The position numbers and the translations under genes are program-made. A stretch of 64,000 nucleotides of DNA, taken from a virus. Taxonomy: Duplodnaviria; Caudoviricetes. The notes beneath the pieces are model-generated. The model ran no database searches. It had not been told where the DNA came from and saw only the letters and a program-made list of their open reading frames with translations. The stretch lies in the IMG/VR virus record IMGVR_UViG_3300035522_000179, positions 1 to 64,000 of that record; one strand, 5' to 3'. This document shows, in pieces, positions 33,643 to 63,232 of the stretch. Each line of letters starts with the position of its first letter. The stretch's first letter is position 1.

Positions 33643-33690
33643 AATTATTTCCCTCTCTTTTTACAGATTTTATTGGTCTACATTTCTGTA

Positions 33691-33734
33691 CCTGTATAAA
33701 ACAATAATACTAAAGTATTATTGTTTTATACAGG
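33691..33734. repeat. 44-bp palindrome, copy 1 (core AA)
   Basis: cctgtataaaacaataatact-aa-agtattattgttttatacagg. Confidence 0.95.
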
Positions 33735-33852
33735 AGGAAAAAACTTTTTATAAAAATTTATCATCCCCTCCTGTTTTTAAATCCCTAGAAAAAACAAATT
33801 AATAAATGATTTCAAAAACGAAAAAAATAAGAAAGATAAAGGAGAAAAAGAA

Positions 33853-38494: not shown

Positions 38495-38538
38495 CCTGTA
38501 TAAAACAATAATACTTTAGTATTATTGTTTTATACAGG
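38495..38538. repeat. 44-bp palindrome, copy 2 (core TT, inverted relative to the others)
   Basis: cctgtataaaacaataatact-tt-agtattattgttttatacagg. Confidence 0.95.
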
Positions 38539-38586
38539 TACAGAAAGCAGATTAGTACAAATATAAAAAAAGAGAGGGAAATAATT

Positions 38587-42654: not shown

Positions 42655-42698
42655 CCTGTATAAAACAATAATACTAAAGTATTATTGTTTTATACAGG
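42655..42698. repeat. 44-bp palindrome, copy 3 (core AA)
   Basis: Identical to copy 1. Confidence 0.95.
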
Positions 42699-42728
42699 TT
42701 GACTCATTCTTATTCTAAAAAGGAGAAA

Positions 42729-44138: not shown

Positions 44139-44186
44139 AATTATTTCCCTCTCTTTTTACAGATTTTATTGGTCTACATTTCTGTA

Positions 44187-44230
44187 CCTGTATAAAACAA
44201 TAATACTAAAGTATTATTGTTTTATACAGG
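44187..44230. repeat. 44-bp palindrome, copy 4 (core AA)
   Basis: Identical to copy 1. Confidence 0.95.
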
Positions 44231-44259: not shown

Positions 44260-44302
44260 AAAATAAGCTAAGAGATGTATGTTGCATCTCTTAGCTTATT
44301 TT
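44260..44302. terminator. Bidirectional terminator
   Basis: aaaataagctaagagatg / catctcttagcttatttt. Confidence 0.75.
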
Positions 44303-44319: not shown

Positions 44320-44454
44320 CTACTTGTTCTCTTCATACCATTCCCGGTATTCATCCTCGGTTGAGAATAACTGATACGCATCGAACCCTTTTTCATCTTT
44401 CCCAATAAAGCCTTCACAACCATTTGATACAAGATAAAATTTGTACTCTAACAT
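44320..44454 (-). CDS. 44-aa protein (not in ORF track)
   Basis: MLEYKFYLVSNGCEGFIGKDEKGFDAYQLFSTEDEYREWYEENK; aggaaaggag RBS. Confidence 0.65.
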   Translation of the reverse strand: MLEYKFYLVSNGCEGFIGKDEKGFDAYQLFSTEDEYREWYEENK

Positions 44455-55327: not shown

Positions 55328-56377
55328 ATGACAAATAAAGATATCAAAATCAAGTTTATTAATCGTCTTATGGCTAGGGACGAATGGACGAAGAAACAAA
55401 GTGATACGGAATATGTAACCAGGTGCCCGTATTGTGGAGATAGTTCTGATCCCTCTCACGGACACTTTTACATTAACGTGAACTTGGAAGACAATTCAAA
55501 TATTGTCTATAACTGTTTTAAATGCCCAGCAGGAGGAGTTCTTACCAATGATACTCTAGTAAGACTGGGAATTGATGATATAGAGTTAAAGTCAGATATT
55601 CTGCTTTTGAATAAGACCGCGGATGTTCCTGACAAAAAACAAATTGGTGGAGAACTCATTAATATCTTTGAGTATCATCCACCTAAAATTACTTTAGGTC
55701 CGAAAACGGATTACATTAAAAACCGGCTTGGTTATGACTTTCGTATGGAGGATTATCAAAAGTTAAAAGTCATTACATCCTTTGCAGACTTCGTAGAAGA
55801 AAACCACATTAAAAAATTAATGTGCTCACGAGAAATTGCAAGGATGCTTGATGCTTACTACGTGGGATTTTTAAGTTATGGGAATTCGCATATTCTGTTT
55901 CGTGATGTTACTGACAAGATGAAATTATCTTGGGTGAAGTATCCAATCACTGAGAAATCACGGGATAACAGAATCTTTTATTCCATATCTTCTCAAATTG
56001 ATCCCTATACCGAAGGACTCATAACCATAAACCTATGCGAAGGGGTGATAGATGCAGCTTCTATTTATTACAATCTTGGTTACTGTAATGAGAACACGAT
56101 TACGATTGCAGTAACAGGAAAATATTATGAACCCATTGTGAGATATTTGATTGGACTGGGATTATTTGGGTCAAATGTGGAATTGAATATCTTCGCAGAC
56201 AACGATGCAAAGTTCAATAAGAAGAACAAAGCAAAAGATACAAATCTAGAATTTTACAAAAAGATATTTAAGAATATCAAGTTCTTGTTTAAGAATGTCA
56301 GAGTTTATTACAATATCTTGCGAAAAGACTGTGGATATCCGAAAGAATTTATATCTTTGGTAGACTATAAATTATAG
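55328..56377 (+). CDS. DNA primase (Zn finger plus TOPRIM)
   Basis: RCPYCGDS...HFY...YNCFKC; LCEGVIDA; FADND. Confidence 0.85.
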   Translation: MTNKDIKIKFINRLMARDEWTKKQSDTEYVTRCPYCGDSSDPSHGHFYINVNLEDNSNIVYNCFKCPAGGVLTNDTLVRLGIDDIELKSDILLLNKTADVPDKKQIGGELINIFEYHPPKITLGPKTDYIKNRLGYDFRMEDYQKLKVITSFADFVEENHIKKLMCSREIARMLDAYYVGFLSYGNSHILFRDVTDKMKLSWVKYPITEKSRDNRIFYSISSQIDPYTEGLITINLCEGVIDAASIYYNLGYCNENTITIAVTGKYYEPIVRYLIGLGLFGSNVELNIFADNDAKFNKKNKAKDTNLEFYKKIFKNIKFLFKNVRVYYNILRKDCGYPKEFISLVDYKL

Positions 56378-57353: not shown

Positions 57354-58841
57354 TCACTCATCTACTTCACCTGCGATTTCATCATCCTCATTAGATAACA
57401 TCTCTTGTACTTTGCCTCTTATGGAATCTCCGGAAATAGTAACGGATGCAGTTGTTTCAGAGATTTGTTCTTCCTCATCCGAATCCTCTTCTAAATCTTC
57501 TTCATCTTCGAATTCAATCTCAACATCAGATTCATCCACTTCTTCTAGACTTTCTACAAGGTCATCATCAATTTCCTCTTCTTCTTTATCTACATTCGGC
57601 TCTTCACCGTTCTGCATTCTTTCATAAAGCATGAAGACTTCTTCGTAAGAATGAGCGTGCTTTGTATTCCATCCAGCTTCATCCAGCTCTTTTAACATTA
57701 ACAACTCTTCATCAATGATCTGTTGAAGAACTTTTTCCGGGTCATCCCCTTCTGCCAATGCTTTGTAAGAGTCATCATAGTAGCTTCCGAGCTCTCTCTT
57801 GATGTTTTCTCTGGCAGCTTCTTTTTTCTTAGCATTCATTTCCTCTTCTGCTTTGATTCTTTCCGGATGATACTTGTAGTTGGTATTGTGTTCTTTAAAG
57901 TATTCATGATTTACCGGATTATCAAAGTAGGAATAGAAGATTCGCATCTGTTTTAATACAGCGTTCTTCGTATCCTCCGTTGCTTCTCCCATCACGACAT
58001 CATTCAGAGCAGAAATAATTGCAGTAATATATCCAACTTCTCTGTCAGAACTTAAATCACAGAAACCGATGAATCTTACAACATAGAACAAAAAGAGATT
58101 ATTATAAGGAAGATAATCTTCCGGAAGAAGTGTCTCCTCCAGATTGTAAAACATGTAATGAACTGCGTACTTGCATCCGAGTTTATTCAGAGCATTGTAG
58201 TATTTATTCATTACATAGCTTCCTTTTTCTTTTGTAAAGTAAGATTCCTTTACGGATTTTACTTCACTCTTGGGGTGATTGATTAGTCTCTTTGTTAAGA
58301 AGGTAAGATCTTCTGTTTCTCTCAGAGTATCATATTGCTTCTGAAGTCTGGCATTCTCCAAAGGATCCGTGGTTTCCGAAATCCTTTGCAGAAGATCTTC
58401 ATGAATGTATTTTGCTTTGGCTGCTTTATACTCTGGAGATTTTAACTTCTTAACATAAGCATCAAACAACTCACCGCGATTCTGCTTCAGTTCTTCCAAG
58501 CTGTCTTTTGTTTCATCATAGGAAATAACGCTTTCCTTAATGGAATGAATTCTCTTTACGCAGAAATCAAAGAAAGGTGTTGATGTATCTCCTAATTTGT
58601 AATACTCTTCTTTGAATGCATTCTCATTGCAATCTCCTTTTTTCAGGAGGTCTTTAATAGAAATAAGATCCAAAGCATCAATCTGAGTATCTGACATATT
58701 TGCAACAATACGTGCAAATTTCTGGGTTATCCCAAATTCTCCGAGTGCTTCTTCCACACTCTTTTGATAATCCTCTACGGTGCTTTCATAAATTTCTAAA
58801 AGCTTGTCAAGTTCCTTTGTAGCATCCATAATCTCACTCAT
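57354..58841 (-). CDS. Hypothetical late protein with acidic C-terminus
   Basis: 495-aa ORF; CACA-N6-TAA upstream. Confidence 0.75.
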   Translation of the reverse strand: MSEIMDATKELDKLLEIYESTVEDYQKSVEEALGEFGITQKFARIVANMSDTQIDALDLISIKDLLKKGDCNENAFKEEYYKLGDTSTPFFDFCVKRIHSIKESVISYDETKDSLEELKQNRGELFDAYVKKLKSPEYKAAKAKYIHEDLLQRISETTDPLENARLQKQYDTLRETEDLTFLTKRLINHPKSEVKSVKESYFTKEKGSYVMNKYYNALNKLGCKYAVHYMFYNLEETLLPEDYLPYNNLFLFYVVRFIGFCDLSSDREVGYITAIISALNDVVMGEATEDTKNAVLKQMRIFYSYFDNPVNHEYFKEHNTNYKYHPERIKAEEEMNAKKKEAARENIKRELGSYYDDSYKALAEGDDPEKVLQQIIDEELLMLKELDEAGWNTKHAHSYEEVFMLYERMQNGEEPNVDKEEEEIDDDLVESLEEVDESDVEIEFEDEEDLEEDSDEEEQISETTASVTISGDSIRGKVQEMLSNEDDEIAGEVDE

Positions 58842-58922
58842 ATGTTTCGTTCCCTTTCTTTTAAAAAATTACTATATTGTGCCTATCTAAATAATTATTT
58901 ATCACAATCATAACATATTTGT

Positions 58923-59201
58923 AATACTCAGGGACGGATCCGATTCGCCTGTTGGCGTGCCGGTAGCAATGAAAATACCTGTTCCTTACTTATTGTTTTA
59001 TCTTGCGGGCAATATCTGTCAAGGAATGATTCCTTCGATTTGTTGTTTTGCATGGCTTGTAAAACTCCATAAAATGTGTAAAGAATGCTGTACCGGTGAT
59101 TGAAGGCGGCATTCAGCGGCGTAGCCTTCATTTTGGGGCGGAATAGGGGGTTCGACTGAGTATTAACGATCCTAGAGGATAATTCAGTATCCTCTAGGAT
59201 C
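58923..59201 (+). ncRNA. Candidate structured late RNA of about 240 nt plus terminator
   Basis: AACA-N6-TAA at 58912-58924; taatactcag pairs with ctgagtatta (59156-59165); GC-rich with internal helices; terminator 59168-59201. Confidence 0.65.
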
Positions 59202-59210
59202 TCTTTGTTG

Positions 59211-61367
59211 TTAAAATGAGAAAGGATTATCATCTTCGAAAGTGTTAATCCCGTTTAATTCATTAAATAAATCAAGATCAATGGAATTCGATCCATAGTC
59301 TTCATCAAATGCGGTCATCTCTTCTTTTGTTACATTTCCAGTATCCAAAGAAATCGAAGAGGACATGATCTTCGCAGTCTCTTTTTGAGACTCCAATATC
59401 GCTTGTCTTAAAATGGATTCATAATCCATCATCTTAGCAATTTTCTGATCTTCTATAATTGCTTCTGCCACATCTTCTGGTAATACTTCCGCTAGTTCTC
59501 TCTGTGTTCTGTGTAACCCTCTATTGGGTTCTGTTTTTTCTTTCTCTCCAGGAATATAACCAAACAAAGGAAGGTTATTTCCATGAATCAAAACATACAT
59601 AGCAATCAAGTAAGACATAATACTATCGTCGTGTGATCCAGGTCCTGCAGCAATCTTTCCAGAAGCAAGACGAACAAGTCCAGAGATATCTCTTATGATG
59701 TTTGCCGTAATAAAGTCATCTTTGTTTGCAGCAATTCGATCGGCAAGAATTGCGAACATATCACTTCTAGATTCTTTATCCGTATAAACTCCATAATAGG
59801 ATTTTTCAGCAGCTTTCTTCTTAAGAATGGATTCTACGGTTTCGTTTGCATTCATAGTATCCTGAACCAAATCTTTTGCTCTATCGAAATACAATCTATG
59901 AGAAATCTTACTATTGAGTAAGTGATCAATGATTCCATCACCTACACTGTTTCTCTCGATACATACGATCGATCTGGGAATGTGCTGTGTTACCAATTCA
60001 ATAATAATCTGTTCATATTCCGTTTCACCAACATAAGAGCACTCAAACTCTGCAACAGGTCTAGCTGTATAAGGATTTAATGCAGTGATTGCATTGTGGT
60101 CTTGGTTGGTACCAGTAGAACAGTCGATACCGAGAATATAGGGAATTGCAGGATCCAATTCTTCGTAGATCTTAAACTCATAATAATCTCTGATCCAAAG
60201 AGAAGAAATCGGTTTATGAGCATGATCGTTGATATACTCGATATCCTCTTTCGGATAAGGAGACAAAGAAGATCCATGTAGTCTTTGAAGCAAAATTTCT
60301 CTTCGAACAGTAAGAGGATCTCCAATCTCATTTGAGATTTTCTCAAGCCACTCTTCATCCAAGCCAATCTGATAGTAGTGAAACTCAATATAAATGATAT
60401 TGTTGGATCCACCAGATTTTGCATAAGCTTGCATCTCTTCTTTTGTCATGTCATAAATTTTCTCGGTCCAAGGTTTTGTATTATTCAAAACAGCTTGTGC
60501 TTCCTGACCAGCACCGGAATCCAAATCACCAGGAGTACATGTAAATACTCTTGCATGTAAGGTTCCATTTGCTTCGGATGCTCTTGCTGCTGTTTCATAA
60601 GTAGATACGGAGTTACTGATAATACTTCCAATATAATCCGTAAACTCCGGCTCATCATAGTGAATGATAGGAGCAGTCAAACCACGCGCAAGGGATACTG
60701 CTTTTGGTCTAGATCCAGCACCTGCTCGAATTTTAATGGTGTTCTTTGTAACAGGTTGTTTCATCTGGGTAGCGTTATTAACTGCTTTTACTGCTTTTCC
60801 TGTTTCATCGTCGTAATACGATTCGAATCTCATATACTCAGGAAGTAAATCAATTTGTGTTTTGATACGTCCTAAGTTTTCTTTTGCGTCTGGTTGTTGT
60901 TTATTCACAAAAATAAAATCAGAGGTAGTTGTTCCAAAAGAATAACCCCAAGCAAATGCAGCTAGTGCAGATTGTGTTTTACCTTGCTGACGAGGTAAGC
61001 ATAACCAGGAGTCAATTCCATGTAGAATACAAAACGCTTGTGCGATGTTTCCTCTGTTTGCTTTATACATAACACCTTTCGGATTACCAGGGTCTGGTAT
61101 TCGGCATACTTCTCTTAAATAATACCAAAGATTCCTTCTACACTCTGTAATCACTCTAGCAATTTGGTCTCTGGTAAGTGTTGTATTTCCATTACTATCT
61201 ACTGCATGAGGATTTACATTGATTAATGTCGGATCATTTAATTCGAGAAGAAAATACCATTTCTTGACACCCAGCGTTCTAAGGTCTTTTGCTAACTGCA
61301 AAAAAGAAGTATTTGCAGTTCCAATGTCATAAATTTTATTTCCTATTCTTTTTAGTCTAGATCCCAT
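59211..61367 (-). CDS. terL: Terminase large subunit
   Basis: Walker A PRQQGKT, Walker B IIHYDE, coupling TCTP, nuclease LGIDCSTG, IERN, HDDSIMS. Confidence 0.92.
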   Translation of the reverse strand: MGSRLKRIGNKIYDIGTANTSFLQLAKDLRTLGVKKWYFLLELNDPTLINVNPHAVDSNGNTTLTRDQIARVITECRRNLWYYLREVCRIPDPGNPKGVMYKANRGNIAQAFCILHGIDSWLCLPRQQGKTQSALAAFAWGYSFGTTTSDFIFVNKQQPDAKENLGRIKTQIDLLPEYMRFESYYDDETGKAVKAVNNATQMKQPVTKNTIKIRAGAGSRPKAVSLARGLTAPIIHYDEPEFTDYIGSIISNSVSTYETAARASEANGTLHARVFTCTPGDLDSGAGQEAQAVLNNTKPWTEKIYDMTKEEMQAYAKSGGSNNIIYIEFHYYQIGLDEEWLEKISNEIGDPLTVRREILLQRLHGSSLSPYPKEDIEYINDHAHKPISSLWIRDYYEFKIYEELDPAIPYILGIDCSTGTNQDHNAITALNPYTARPVAEFECSYVGETEYEQIIIELVTQHIPRSIVCIERNSVGDGIIDHLLNSKISHRLYFDRAKDLVQDTMNANETVESILKKKAAEKSYYGVYTDKESRSDMFAILADRIAANKDDFITANIIRDISGLVRLASGKIAAGPGSHDDSIMSYLIAMYVLIHGNNLPLFGYIPGEKEKTEPNRGLHRTQRELAEVLPEDVAEAIIEDQKIAKMMDYESILRQAILESQKETAKIMSSSISLDTGNVTKEEMTAFDEDYGSNSIDLDLFNELNGINTFEDDNPFSF

Positions 61368-61510
61368 ATTTATAGACCTCCATTAGAATAACGTTTTTTG
61401 AATGGATTCGAAAACCACTTTTGGTCAGTGATATATTATTTTTATGGAACCAGACAAGAAAAACTGAATATGGAACAAAAAACGTCATAAGAGAAAGCGA
61501 GGTAATTAAT

Positions 61511-63232
61511 ATGAAGAATTACTTTAAGGTTCTAAAGAGGTATCACATGATACTTCCGCTATTGGTATTGATAGTGATTACTGCTATCAATTCTAGTCTT
61601 GGAGTTTATATCACAAAACTGTTTCAGTTTGCAGCAAATGCGATAGGAACTCCGGAGGTTACTCGGCTGATTGTTATATTGTTACTCACAGAGATCACCT
61701 TATGTGCTATAACAAGATTCAAATGGTATCTAAACAGATACGTTAGAGAATCATTAGCGGACAAGTATCGGACTGACATCTTTTCAAAGACAGAAAATAT
61801 TTCTGTAAAAGATTTGGAAGATTTCAGTATTCCGACACTTACATCAGCCACAGAGTATGCGTATACAACCTCCGATAATATGGTTGAAGTACCAAAGACA
61901 ATCGTTTCCTGTCTTAGTACTTATATATCAACTGTATGCGCAATGCTCACCACAGATGTAAATCTTTCATTCATCATGATTGGGTTAAGTACTATCTGTG
62001 GATTCGTATTCATCGGTCTTTATAGAAAGGTCGGAGATTACGAAAAAGAGAGAAAGGAATTATCTACCAAACTGAATACTTGTATTACAAGGCTTGAAGG
62101 TTATCTTGTAACAAAGTGCTTTGCAAAAGAGAGTTATGAGGTTAACAAGTATGCAGGTATTTCTGGTAGATATAAGAAGGGCTCTCTAAAGAAGTCTGCA
62201 GCCATTCAAAATGCTTCGACAGTATTTGGTGCAATGAATGTATTCATTGATGCTGGAGTACTCATCTATCTATCACTTACTTATGATGGAAACCTTACAA
62301 GTACAATTAGTAAGGCATTAGTATTCTACAGCTTAGCAAATAACTTATTTGCACCATTTGACAACCTGTTGGAAGTGATTGATGCAACCTCAACAATGAT
62401 GGTTCACATCAATGATAATGAGAAATTGTTATCAATGCCAGATGAGTATGATGGAACCATCGAGCTTAAGCAATTCAATGACTCTATTGAGTTTCGGAAT
62501 GTATCCTTCTCCTATGAGGATACAGACAACGTTCTTTCCGAAATCAATGTGAAGATTGAGAAAGGGCAAAAAGTTGGAATCTATGGAAGAAGTGGAAGTG
62601 GAAAATCCACATTTGTAAATCTAATCAATAGATTCTTCCCTGTAGATTCTGGTGAGATTCTTATTGATGGAGTAAACATCAACCAGTTTACAAAATCATC
62701 CTTAAGAAAAATCATAGGAAATGTCACTCAAGAATCCTTCCTGTTCTCTGACATGACAGTAATGGAGAACATCAAGTATGGAACCAATGCAACAGATGAC
62801 GAAGTGGTGATAGCAGCAAAGCGTGCAAATGCACATGAATTCATTAGCAAACTTCCAGATGGATACAATAGCTATGTTGGGAACAACGGAGTAAAGCTAT
62901 CTGGTGGGGAGAAACAAAGAGTTGCAATTGCAAGATTATTCTTACTTAATCCTCCAATCTTAATACTGGATGAAGCAACCAGTAGTTTGGATACTGAGTC
63001 AGAAACATACATCAAACAAAGCATTGAAAACCTGTCAAAAGGTAAGACTGTGATTTCTATTGCACACAGATTTACTACAATAGAAAATAGTGACTTACTA
63101 ATTGGAATCAAAGACCATACTATTTGTGAATGTGGTCCAGCAGAAGAGATCAAATCTACCAATTCTTTATATAATGAGTTGGCTGGGATTGATCCGAATA
63201 CCAAGAAATATGAAATTGGGTTCATGAAATAA
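61511..63232 (+). CDS. Fused TMD-NBD ABC transporter (MsbA/Sav1866-like exporter)
   Basis: Multiple TM helices; GRSGSGKST, Q-loop, LSGGEKQR, ILILDEATSSLD, IAHR; early motif at 61430-61449. Confidence 0.92.
   Translation: MKNYFKVLKRYHMILPLLVLIVITAINSSLGVYITKLFQFAANAIGTPEVTRLIVILLLTEITLCAITRFKWYLNRYVRESLADKYRTDIFSKTENISVKDLEDFSIPTLTSATEYAYTTSDNMVEVPKTIVSCLSTYISTVCAMLTTDVNLSFIMIGLSTICGFVFIGLYRKVGDYEKERKELSTKLNTCITRLEGYLVTKCFAKESYEVNKYAGISGRYKKGSLKKSAAIQNASTVFGAMNVFIDAGVLIYLSLTYDGNLTSTISKALVFYSLANNLFAPFDNLLEVIDATSTMMVHINDNEKLLSMPDEYDGTIELKQFNDSIEFRNVSFSYEDTDNVLSEINVKIEKGQKVGIYGRSGSGKSTFVNLINRFFPVDSGEILIDGVNINQFTKSSLRKIIGNVTQESFLFSDMTVMENIKYGTNATDDEVVIAAKRANAHEFISKLPDGYNSYVGNNGVKLSGGEKQRVAIARLFLLNPPILILDEATSSLDTESETYIKQSIENLSKGKTVISIAHRFTTIENSDLLIGIKDHTICECGPAEEIKSTNSLYNELAGIDPNTKKYEIGFMK

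What the first reader, a model, noticed from the sequence alone, without database searches (positions are those of the whole stretch)
58912..59201. GC-rich structured RNA with its own late promoter, convergent with the terminase gene
Seen: the predicted start coincides with a 10-bp stem (taatactcag/ctgagtatta) enclosing about 240 nt. Inner helices include ccggta/taccgg, tgaaggc/gccttca, aaggaat/attcctt and cgcc/ggcg, and a terminator follows. It lacks complete tRNA, tmRNA or RNase P signatures, although ggggttcgact is T-loop-like. Inference: an unclassified phage ncRNA (decoy, 6S-like or packaging-associated).
Basis: partly seen in the sequence, partly recalled or inferred. Interest (0 to 1): 0.7.

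Follow-up and report, generated by a model that had tools for sequence, protein, structure and literature searches.

The report
Late paired-ends RNA gene, jumbo phage
Between the terminase gene and the next late gene, this uncultured 250-kb phage probably carries a separate gene for a roughly 245-base non-coding RNA whose two ends pair with each other; its nearest relatives keep an RNA gene of the same design at the same spot, but its job is unknown and nobody has seen the transcript.

Summary
An AR9-type late promoter (AACATATTTGTAA, 58912-58924) puts the start at A58923. That is the first base of a 9-bp stem (58923-31 / 59156-64) enclosing 224 nt, and a 14-bp terminator hairpin with a U tract on this strand follows 3 nt later.

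Rfam, ARAGORN, BLAST and a covariance model found no known family and no sequence relative, in 43 related phage genomes or elsewhere. The 48-codon ORF inside has no Shine-Dalgarno site and no real homologues.

- The fold of the core alone is only modestly better than chance (z about -2).
- The RNA gene travels with the neighbouring 495-aa late gene, not with the terminase. In the closest relatives (G023, G027) terL lies more than 100 kb away. Even so, a late-promoter RNA with paired ends still sits back-to-back with that gene's promoter. G012 and the L007 clade have one too.

The end-pairing sequences differ in every lineage yet stay paired, while the interiors diverge. The window's copy has extra GC-rich arms.

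This is most likely a new, fast-evolving late phage sRNA locus. This scan has already noted similar paired-ends late RNAs in other AR9-like phages. Function unknown.

The parts
58912..58924 (+). Late promoter AACATATTTGTAA (AACA-N6-TAA). The predicted transcription start is A58923.
   Evidence: The motif is 59x in the genome, 52 in non-coding DNA. It matches the AR9 late consensus, whose last base is the start site (PMC5312081).
58923..58931 (+). 5' strand of the end-pairing stem (AAUACUCAG), beginning at +1.
   Evidence: (pair probability 0.97).
59156..59164 (+). 3' strand of the end-pairing stem (CUGAGUAUU), ending 3 nt before the terminator.
58935..58941 (+). Helix P2, 5' strand CGGAUCC.
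   Evidence: pair probability 0.99; arms absent from G023, G027 and G012.
58946..58957 (+). Small hairpin CGCC-UGUU-GGCG.
   Evidence: pair probability 0.88.
58969..58979 (+). Box AUGAAAAUACC. The core AAAAUAC(C/U) is shared with the orthologous RNAs of G023 and G027 and recurs in other non-coding stretches of this genome.
58978..58985 (+). Predicted long-range helix CCUGUUCC, pairing with 59140-59147 (GGAAUAGG).
   Evidence: pair probability 0.92; the alternative costs +5 kcal/mol. It is not tested by covariation.
59021..59035 (+). Hairpin AAGGAA-UGA-UUCCUU.
   Evidence: pair probability 0.87.
59045..59074 (+). Hairpin GUUUUGCA-UGGCU-UGUAAAAC followed by CUCCAUAAAA. Similar C/U-rich boxes occur in other late paired-ends RNAs, but the resemblance is weak.
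   Evidence: leave-one-out HMM E = 12, so not significant.
59083..59114 (+). Hairpin GAAUGCUGU ... GCGGCAUUC.
   Evidence: pair probability 0.88.
59168..59211 (+). Intrinsic terminator: a 14-bp perfect hairpin plus a U-rich tail on the + strand. It lies directly after the terL stop codon on the other strand.
58869..58881 (-). Variant late promoter CACAATATAGTAA of the 495-aa gene, back-to-back with the RNA promoter. The same arrangement is conserved in G023, G027, L007, L008 and L022.
57354..58841 (-). 495-aa late gene (all-alpha, very acidic disordered tail, function unknown). It is the conserved neighbour of the RNA gene.
59211..61367 (-). Large terminase gene, convergent with the RNA. It is not linked to the RNA gene in G023 or G027.
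58957..59103 (+). 48-codon ORF (44 codons from the ATG at 58969) inside the RNA. It is the rival coding reading and is judged not to be a gene.

Best explanation
This is a stand-alone gene for a non-coding RNA made late in infection. The phage's own non-virion RNA polymerase would start at A58923 from an AR9-type late promoter, transcribe about 285 nt and stop at the hairpin terminator. The first nine bases pair with the nine bases just before the terminator, extended by a 7-bp GC helix. Both ends of the roughly 243-nt body are therefore locked in a stem. Inferred: this protects the RNA from exonucleases and holds out a variable interior.

The gene is one copy of a conserved, fast-evolving locus. 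In the nearest relatives, an RNA gene of the same design sits back-to-back with the promoter of the same 495-aa late gene. The window's copy has gained GC-rich arms on both sides of an AT-rich core.

Shown by computation: promoter motif, terminator, end pairing, absence of a credible ORF, positional conservation, and compensating changes in the end stem.

Inferred: that it is transcribed and stable, and that it acts in trans by binding another RNA or a protein late in infection. No target is known.
For: Promoter. AACA-N6-TAA is about 60-fold enriched per base in non-coding DNA (52 of 59 copies in 10.5% of the genome) and equals the mapped AR9 late promoter. From the coding-region density, about 0.01 chance copies are expected in this 370-nt gap.

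Design. The start is the first base of the stem, the stem ends 3 nt before a 14-bp terminator, and the U tract is on this strand. Among promoters not followed by a ribosome site and ORF, only this one and the known late sRNA at 220.8 kb combine a clean stem starting at +1 with a strong terminator.

Not coding. The only ORF has no Shine-Dalgarno site, whereas 180 of 228 genes do. No ORF is shared by the orthologues. A search of 1.8 billion proteins gave only two long repetitive proteins.

Synteny. In G023 the RNA start is at 44355 (+) and the 495-aa gene start at 44282 (-). In G027 they are at 56182 (+) and 56099 (-). terL is more than 100 kb away in both. G012 (locus L018) and the L007-L011/L022 clade have the same unit.

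Promoter pair. Back-to-back CACA-N6-TAA and AACA-N6-TAA promoters are conserved in six genomes.

End stems. They differ in sequence but stay paired: AAUACUCAG, AAUGAUAUGGUUAA, AAUCAGGUUUAU, AAAUUGAGCAUG.

Shared box. AAAAUAC(C/U) lies near the 5' end in the window, G023 and G027.

Folding. All seven orthologous RNAs tested fold somewhat better than shuffles on the RNA strand (z -1.5 to -3.3).
Against: - No transcript data exist.
- The core fold is only z about -2, and the opposite strand scores about the same. Thermodynamics alone proves neither structure nor strand.
- No sequence or covariance-model relative was found in 43 related genomes, so the interior helices are untested by covariation.
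- Orthology with the relatives' RNAs rests on position, design and one short box, not on alignable sequence.
- The promoter lacks the A-rich stretch upstream that most late promoters here have.
- Many relatives have only about 50 nt, or a small protein gene, between terL and the 495-aa gene. The RNA is therefore dispensable for this phage group.
Confidence: 0.65

Rival explanations
1. The unit is a small-protein gene. The transcript would be a structured mRNA for a 44-48-aa hydrophobic, cysteine-rich peptide (58957/58969-59103), for example a membrane peptide or a type I toxin-like product kept silent by 5'-3' pairing.
For: An uninterrupted ORF lies inside the RNA. The peptide has a hydrophobic N-terminal half and a charged tail. 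Other relatives carry small protein genes on this strand in the same gap.
Against: There is no Shine-Dalgarno site before either start codon, whereas 79% of this phage's genes have one. The + strand is T-rich, so chance ORFs read as hydrophobic. An exhaustive HMMER search found no small-protein homologue. The orthologous RNAs of G023, G027, G012 and the L007 clade have no shared ORF. The small proteins in other relatives are acidic, unrelated, and have strong ribosome sites.
Confidence: 0.07
2. The RNA has no function of its own. A chance or vestigial late promoter fires into the terL terminator, and the stretch is a spacer or insulator between two late genes. Any transcript would be a by-product.
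For: The core fold is barely better than chance. The interior is not conserved. The slot is empty or differently filled in many relatives. The promoter lacks the usual upstream A tract.
Against: A chance promoter is expected about 0.01 times in this gap. On top of that, its start coincides exactly with a 9-bp stem whose partner ends at the terminator. The same design recurs beside the same gene in four further lineages, with different but still complementary end sequences. Drift alone would not keep that.
Confidence: 0.15
3. The element works as DNA, for example as a packaging signal, a replication or recombination site, or a miniature inverted-repeat element bounded by the 10-bp inverted repeat.
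For: It carries terminal inverted repeats next to the terminase gene. Fold z-scores are similar on both strands.
Against: It is a single copy in the genome with no target-site duplication at the repeat ends. The repeat begins exactly at a promoter's start site and ends at a terminator. The locus follows the 495-aa gene, not terL.
Confidence: 0.05
4. It is a diverged member of a known RNA class (tmRNA or tRNA-like, 6S, RNase P, phi29-type pRNA, or a group I intron remnant) that the searches missed.
For: Short resemblances exist: GGAUCCGAUUCG at the 5' side and GGGGGUUCGACU at the 3' side recall tmRNA/tRNA elements. Relatives' terL genes are full of intron-like insertions.
Against: No relevant Rfam match appeared even at E <= 10 over 651 nt. 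ARAGORN found nothing, even with introns allowed and relaxed thresholds. The would-be T arm has no 3' strand, and there is no acceptor-type end or CCA context. The orthologues in G023 and G027 lack these GC-rich segments altogether.
Confidence: 0.03

Closest known systems
Late transcription units of Bacillus phage AR9/PBS1 (non-virion RNA polymerase, promoter AACA-(6N)-TA/G; Lavysh et al. 2017, PMC5312081)
   Same: The promoter motif is the same, with the start on the last base. This genome also has the AR9-like early motif TATATTAT. Intrinsic-type terminators end the units. TerL is 31-34% identical to PBS1 and BpSp.
   Different: AR9's late units are nearly all protein genes. In PBS1 and BpSp the terL gene is followed after 50-110 nt by protein genes, with no RNA gene there.
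Stand-alone and 5'UTR-derived sRNAs of phiKZ-like jumbo phages (11 sRNAs of 201phi2-1; the sRNA upstream of phiKZ gp182 conserved by position; PMC11512511)
   Same: These are short phage-encoded RNAs delimited by a start site and a nearby terminator. They are conserved mainly by position next to a homologous late gene, and their function is unknown.
   Different: Those were found by transcriptomics in Pseudomonas phages and are mostly leaders of the downstream gene. This one is divergent from its conserved neighbour, has paired termini, is longer, and has no expression data.
Other late-promoter RNAs with paired ends noted by this scan in AR9-like uncultured phages, and engineered paired-termini antisense RNAs
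   Same: The design is the same: a stem formed by the two ends of the transcript encloses a variable interior. This genome has another such RNA at 220.8 kb, and G023 and G027 have several.
   Different: This interior is larger and predicted to be branched, with GC-rich arms. No antisense target was found in the phage genome. Sequence homology to the other RNAs is not significant.
phi29 pRNA (packaging RNA)
   Same: It is a phage RNA of comparable size, and here the gene lies next to the terminase gene.
   Different: There was no Rfam match. The gene is unlinked from terL in the closest relatives and absent from many others, so it cannot be an obligatory motor part.

Membership tests
tmRNA / tRNA | Acceptor stem with a 3' (A)CCA context, plus a T arm (5-bp stem with a GUUCRANYC loop) | tested here: not met
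   ARAGORN found nothing in the window, the whole genome or the region, even with introns allowed and thresholds lowered. There was no Rfam tmRNA or tRNA match at E <= 10. GGGGG-UUCGACU is followed by GAGUA, not by a complementary strand.
Any Rfam 15 family (6S, RNase P, SRP, pRNA, GOLLD, ROOL, group I introns, ribozymes, riboswitches) | Covariance-model score at or above the curated gathering score | tested here: not met
   There were 0 matches at gathering over the 64-kb window. At E <= 10 over 58700-59350 only chance-level matches appeared, most of them on or beyond the terminator hairpin.
AR9-type late transcription unit | AACA-(6N)-TA/G promoter, with the last base as the start | tested here: met
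   58912-58924 reads AACATATTTGTAA. The motif's genome-wide enrichment and its position before genes were checked, and the consensus was taken from PMC5312081.
AR9-type late transcription unit | Actual transcription by the phage non-virion RNA polymerase late in infection | not testable with these tools
   The phage is uncultured and no RNA data are available.
Paired-ends late sRNA locus beside the 495-aa gene (informal, defined here) | A late promoter back-to-back with the CACA-N6-TAA promoter of the 495-aa gene | tested here: met
   Seen in the window, G023, G027, L007, L008 and L022, with synteny shown.
Paired-ends late sRNA locus beside the 495-aa gene (informal, defined here) | The transcript's first bases pair with the bases just before a terminator, and there is no ORF with a ribosome site | tested here: met
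Paired-ends late sRNA locus beside the 495-aa gene (informal, defined here) | Alignable sequence or a shared interior structure (true homology of the RNAs) | tested here: inconclusive
   BLAST and the single-sequence covariance model found nothing. Only the AAAAUAC(C/U) box aligns. Pairwise local alignments to other late RNAs scored z 2.6-2.7 at best.
Type I toxin mRNA with fold-back inhibition (hok-like) | A translated small hydrophobic ORF with a ribosome site, plus a cognate antisense RNA | tested here: not met
   There is no Shine-Dalgarno site, no homologues and no conserved ORF in the orthologues. No antisense promoter was seen inside the unit.

The most novel reading that the evidence does not exclude
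The locus encodes a modular RNA scaffold. A selected 5'-3' end stem plus the short AAAAUACC box would present a rapidly swappable interior. Each phage lineage would tune that interior against a host factor, for example as a decoy for a defence nuclease or an RNA-binding regulator. The window's copy would then be an enlarged, GC-stabilised version. That would make these paired-ends late RNAs a natural counterpart of engineered paired-termini RNAs and a new arena of phage-host arms races.
Probability: 0.12. Interest if true: 0.75.

Novelty: new variant of a known kind. Interest (0 to 1): 0.45.

Why it matters
Phage-encoded small RNAs are known mostly from a few transcriptome studies, and almost none has a function.

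This locus offers a defined late promoter and start base, a terminator, and an end stem kept by compensating changes in several lineages. Its conserved neighbour gene lets the locus be found again even where the RNA sequence has diverged beyond recognition.

It adds to the evidence that AR9-like gut and rumen jumbo phages carry many non-coding RNA genes, and it gives a concrete, small construct to test. If the end-stem design proves to stabilise RNAs made by the phage polymerase, it would also be useful for engineering.

Tried and rejected
Searches for a known family:
- Rfam at gathering score and at E <= 10 gave nothing relevant.
- ARAGORN in standard, intron-allowing and relaxed modes gave nothing. 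Only the permissive mitochondrial mode produced junk.

Searches for relatives of the RNA:
- blastn and nhmmer against 80 terL loci found nothing.
- BLAST and a single-sequence covariance model against the whole records of 43 related phages found only the window itself.
- GenBank phages gave no match.
- Exact-pattern scans of the viral, metagenome and genome collections gave either nothing or 11 chance hits in high-GC organisms, which the model rejects.
- TerL-based searches for closer relatives in viral and metagenome contigs found none.

Other tests:
- A host-derived origin has no support.
- Homology to the L007-family RNA: its most conserved box fetched only that clade.
- Homology to the other late RNAs: the leave-one-out HMM gave E = 12, and I had chosen the training segments by eye, so I discount it.
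- Base-pairing of the RNA with the start region of the 495-aa gene: ranks 164/228, 27/262 and 130/268, so no signal. The top duplexes elsewhere are at chance level.
- An RNA-protein partnership with the 495-aa protein is unlikely. The protein is all-alpha with a very acidic tail and no Pfam, PDB or viral fold match.

One search was a mis-specified query (wrong reference) and says nothing.

Full report
**Context**

The window is the first 64 kb of a 249.6-kb IMG/VR virus record. Its large terminase (59211-61367, minus strand; PHROG terL profiles) is 31-34% identical to those of Bacillus phages BpSp, Goe21 and PBS1. It has hundreds of 50-63% relatives in uncultured 200-280-kb phages.

Two over-represented upstream motifs match the promoters mapped in phage AR9 (PMC5312081):
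- TATATTAT matches the AR9 early consensus AAATATATATTAT-(6N)-G.
- AACA-N6-TAA matches the AR9 late consensus AACA-(6N)-TA/G, whose last base is the start site. It occurs 59 times, 52 of them in the 10.5% of the genome that is non-coding, typically 27-60 nt before a ribosome site and start codon.

I checked the counts and the paper myself.

**The observation**

The gap between terL and a 495-aa gene (57354-58841, minus strand) is 369 nt. On the + strand, 58912-58924 reads AACATATTTGTAA, which puts +1 at A58923.

Bases 58923-58931 (AAUACUCAG) are exactly complementary to 59156-59164. Three bases later comes a perfect 14-bp hairpin (59168-59201), followed by TCTTTGTTGT on this strand.

The minimum-energy fold keeps the end stem (pair probability 0.97) and a 7-bp GC helix, CGGAUCC/GGGUUCG (0.99). 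It also keeps the hairpins CGCC/GGCG, AAGGAA/UUCCUU and GAAUGCUGU/GCGGCAUUC, plus a long-range helix CCUGUUCC/GGAAUAGG.

Without the terminator the 243-nt core gives only z = -2.18 (+ strand) and -1.82 (- strand). Folding energy alone is therefore weak evidence and does not pick the strand. The strand follows from the promoter and from the U tract of the terminator.

**Why the unit is not chance**

Only 7 of the 59 promoter motifs lie in the 89.5% of the genome called as coding. About 0.01 chance copies are therefore expected in this gap.

I scanned every late promoter in this genome and three relatives for two properties. The first was no following ribosome site and ORF. The second was a stem between the first bases of the transcript and a downstream segment next to a strong hairpin. 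In this genome two units stood out with a clean stem starting at +1 and a strong terminator: this one and the late sRNA at 220.8 kb that the scan had noted before.

**Not coding**

The only ORF of note (58957-59103; 48 codons from GTG, 44 from ATG) has no Shine-Dalgarno-like 4-mer upstream, whereas 180 of 228 called genes do. An exhaustive HMMER search of 1.84 billion proteins returned only two long repetitive proteins, with 10-18 matched stretches each.

**Not a known RNA**

Rfam gave nothing at gathering scores for the window and only chance-level matches at E <= 10 around the region. ARAGORN found no tRNA or tmRNA in the whole genome or, with relaxed settings and introns allowed, in the region. 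The 'T-loop-like' GGGGGUUCGACU has no complementary 3' strand.

**No sequence relatives**

All of the following were negative for the RNA:
- blastn and nhmmer on 80 terL loci.
- BLAST and a covariance model built from the window sequence, run on the full records of 43 related phages.
- GenBank phages.
- Pattern scans of the viral, metagenome and bacterial-genome collections.

**Synteny gives the comparative evidence**

I fetched the whole genomes of the three nearest accessible relatives (G012, G023, G027).

| Genome | 495-aa gene start | RNA start | RNA body | First bases pair with | terL position |
|---|---|---|---|---|---|
| G023 | 44282 (-) | 44355 (+), AACA-N6-TAA | 181 nt | AAUGAUAUGGUUAA / UUAAUCAUAUCAUU, just before a strong terminator | about 175-178 kb |
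| G027 | 56099 (-) | 56182 (+) | 167 nt | AAUCAGGUUUAU / AUAAACCUGAUU | about 168-172 kb |

In G012 (locus L018) and in a separate clade (L007-L011, L022) the unit lies between terL and the 495-aa gene, as it does here. The bodies there are about 150 nt and about 290 nt.

In the window, G023, G027, L007, L008 and L022 the 495-aa gene has a conserved variant late promoter, CACA-N6-TAA, placed back-to-back with the RNA's AACA-N6-TAA promoter.

The end stems have different sequences in each lineage but remain paired. In the L007 clade the stem extensions also differ and still pair. None of the orthologous RNAs has an ORF with a ribosome site, and none shares an ORF with another. All fold modestly better than shuffles on the RNA strand (z -1.5 to -3.3).

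The locus is therefore a conserved neighbour of the 495-aa gene, not of the terminase. It is also dispensable. Many relatives have only about 50 nt between terL and the 495-aa gene, or carry small acidic protein genes there. No divergent late promoter was found beside the 495-aa gene in the 18 further relatives where that gene was found.

**What is shared inside**

An alignment of the window, G023, G027 and G012 RNAs shows one common box, AAAAUAC(C/U), close to the 5' stem strand in three of them. It also shows that the window's RNA has about 35 nt extra on the 5' side and 40-60 nt extra on the 3' side, both GC-rich.

The extended box (A/G/U)UGAAAAUACC occurs 11 times in this genome. AAAATACC occurs 31 times, 15 of them in non-coding DNA against 3.3 expected, including other candidate RNA regions. 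In G027 part of that enrichment comes from spacers between ribosome sites and start codons, so the box's meaning is open.

Resemblances to other late paired-ends RNAs (a hairpin with loop UGGCU followed by a CUCC box) are not significant.

**Function**

I found no target. Complementarity to the phage genome is at chance level. Predicted duplexes with the start region of the 495-aa gene rank in the middle of all genes in three genomes, and the best duplexes elsewhere rest on 9-10-nt matches expected by chance.

The 495-aa protein is all-alpha with a very acidic disordered tail (pLDDT 80 over residues 1-417). It has no Pfam, PDB-sequence, PDB-fold or viral-fold match, so it is an unlikely RNA-binding partner.

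My best reading is a stable trans-acting late RNA whose paired ends protect it. The end pairing is under selection, while the interior evolves fast.

**Comparison and novelty**

The closest known things are these:
- AR9 late transcription units, which share the promoter but are nearly all protein genes.
- The position-conserved sRNAs reported for phiKZ-like phages (PMC11512511).
- The paired-ends late RNAs that this scan has already noted in other AR9-like phages.

I file it as a new variant of a known kind, a phage-encoded sRNA. It is real with about 65% confidence, of unknown function, and one of several such genes in this phage group.

Noticed in passing
L014-L020, L033-L048, L051-L056, L060-L069, L075-L081 (terL loci); window 59211-61367: In many relatives the terL reading frame is interrupted by insertions of 250-1200 nt at recurrent positions (after residues 127, 234-238, 276-279 and 578 of the window protein), up to four per gene. 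These are probably group I introns or inteins. The window's terL is uninterrupted. PBS1's terL is annotated in two pieces with an ORF between them.
   Followed up: partly
window about 33690-33735, 38495-38540, 42655-42700, 44185-44230: A perfect 44-nt palindrome (CCTGTATAAAACAATAATACT..AGTATTATTGTTTTATACAGG) occurs four times. Its flanks are shared pairwise, and some copies lie next to poly-G/C runs. Each arm contains AACA-N6-TA.
   Followed up: no
whole genome, e.g. 669 (+), 10486 (-), 15150 (-), 18435 (-), 41679 (+), 58969 (+); beyond the window 220742 (-), 240474 (-), 242750 (-): An 11-mer, (A/G/T)TGAAAATACC, recurs 11 times; the ATG form occurs 7 times against about 0.3 expected. Most copies are in non-coding stretches, several of which are candidate RNA genes. 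The flanks are not conserved, and the mini-ORFs that start at the ATG have unrelated lengths.
   Followed up: partly
G000 220825 (-); G023 142159 (+) and 257235 (-); G027 113478 (+) and 57258 (-): Further late-promoter transcripts of 120-180 nt have paired ends, a strong terminator and no ORF. Several carry C/U-rich boxes identical to parts of the 16S rRNA 3' tail, for example CACCUCCU and CUCCUUUCU in G027 113478.
   Followed up: partly
L003, L004, L006, L014, L015, L023, L048, L054, L060 (the terL / 495-aa gene gap): In other relatives the same gap holds small genes on the strand opposite to terL, with strong AAGGAGG ribosome sites. They encode short acidic peptides, two of which share a (V/L)IEWD(E/D) motif (read by eye).
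   Followed up: no
whole genome (249,613 bases): ARAGORN finds no tRNA or tmRNA gene in this jumbo phage.
   Followed up: no
window 57354-58841 (-): The conserved 495-aa late protein is predicted to be all-alpha (pLDDT 80 over residues 1-417). It has a roughly 80-residue disordered tail that is extremely rich in Asp/Glu, and no detectable family or fold match.
   Followed up: partly
window 61421-63232 (+): An ABC-transporter-like gene (ABC_membrane + ABC_tran) lies divergent from terL, behind an early-type TATATTAT promoter at 61432.
   Followed up: no
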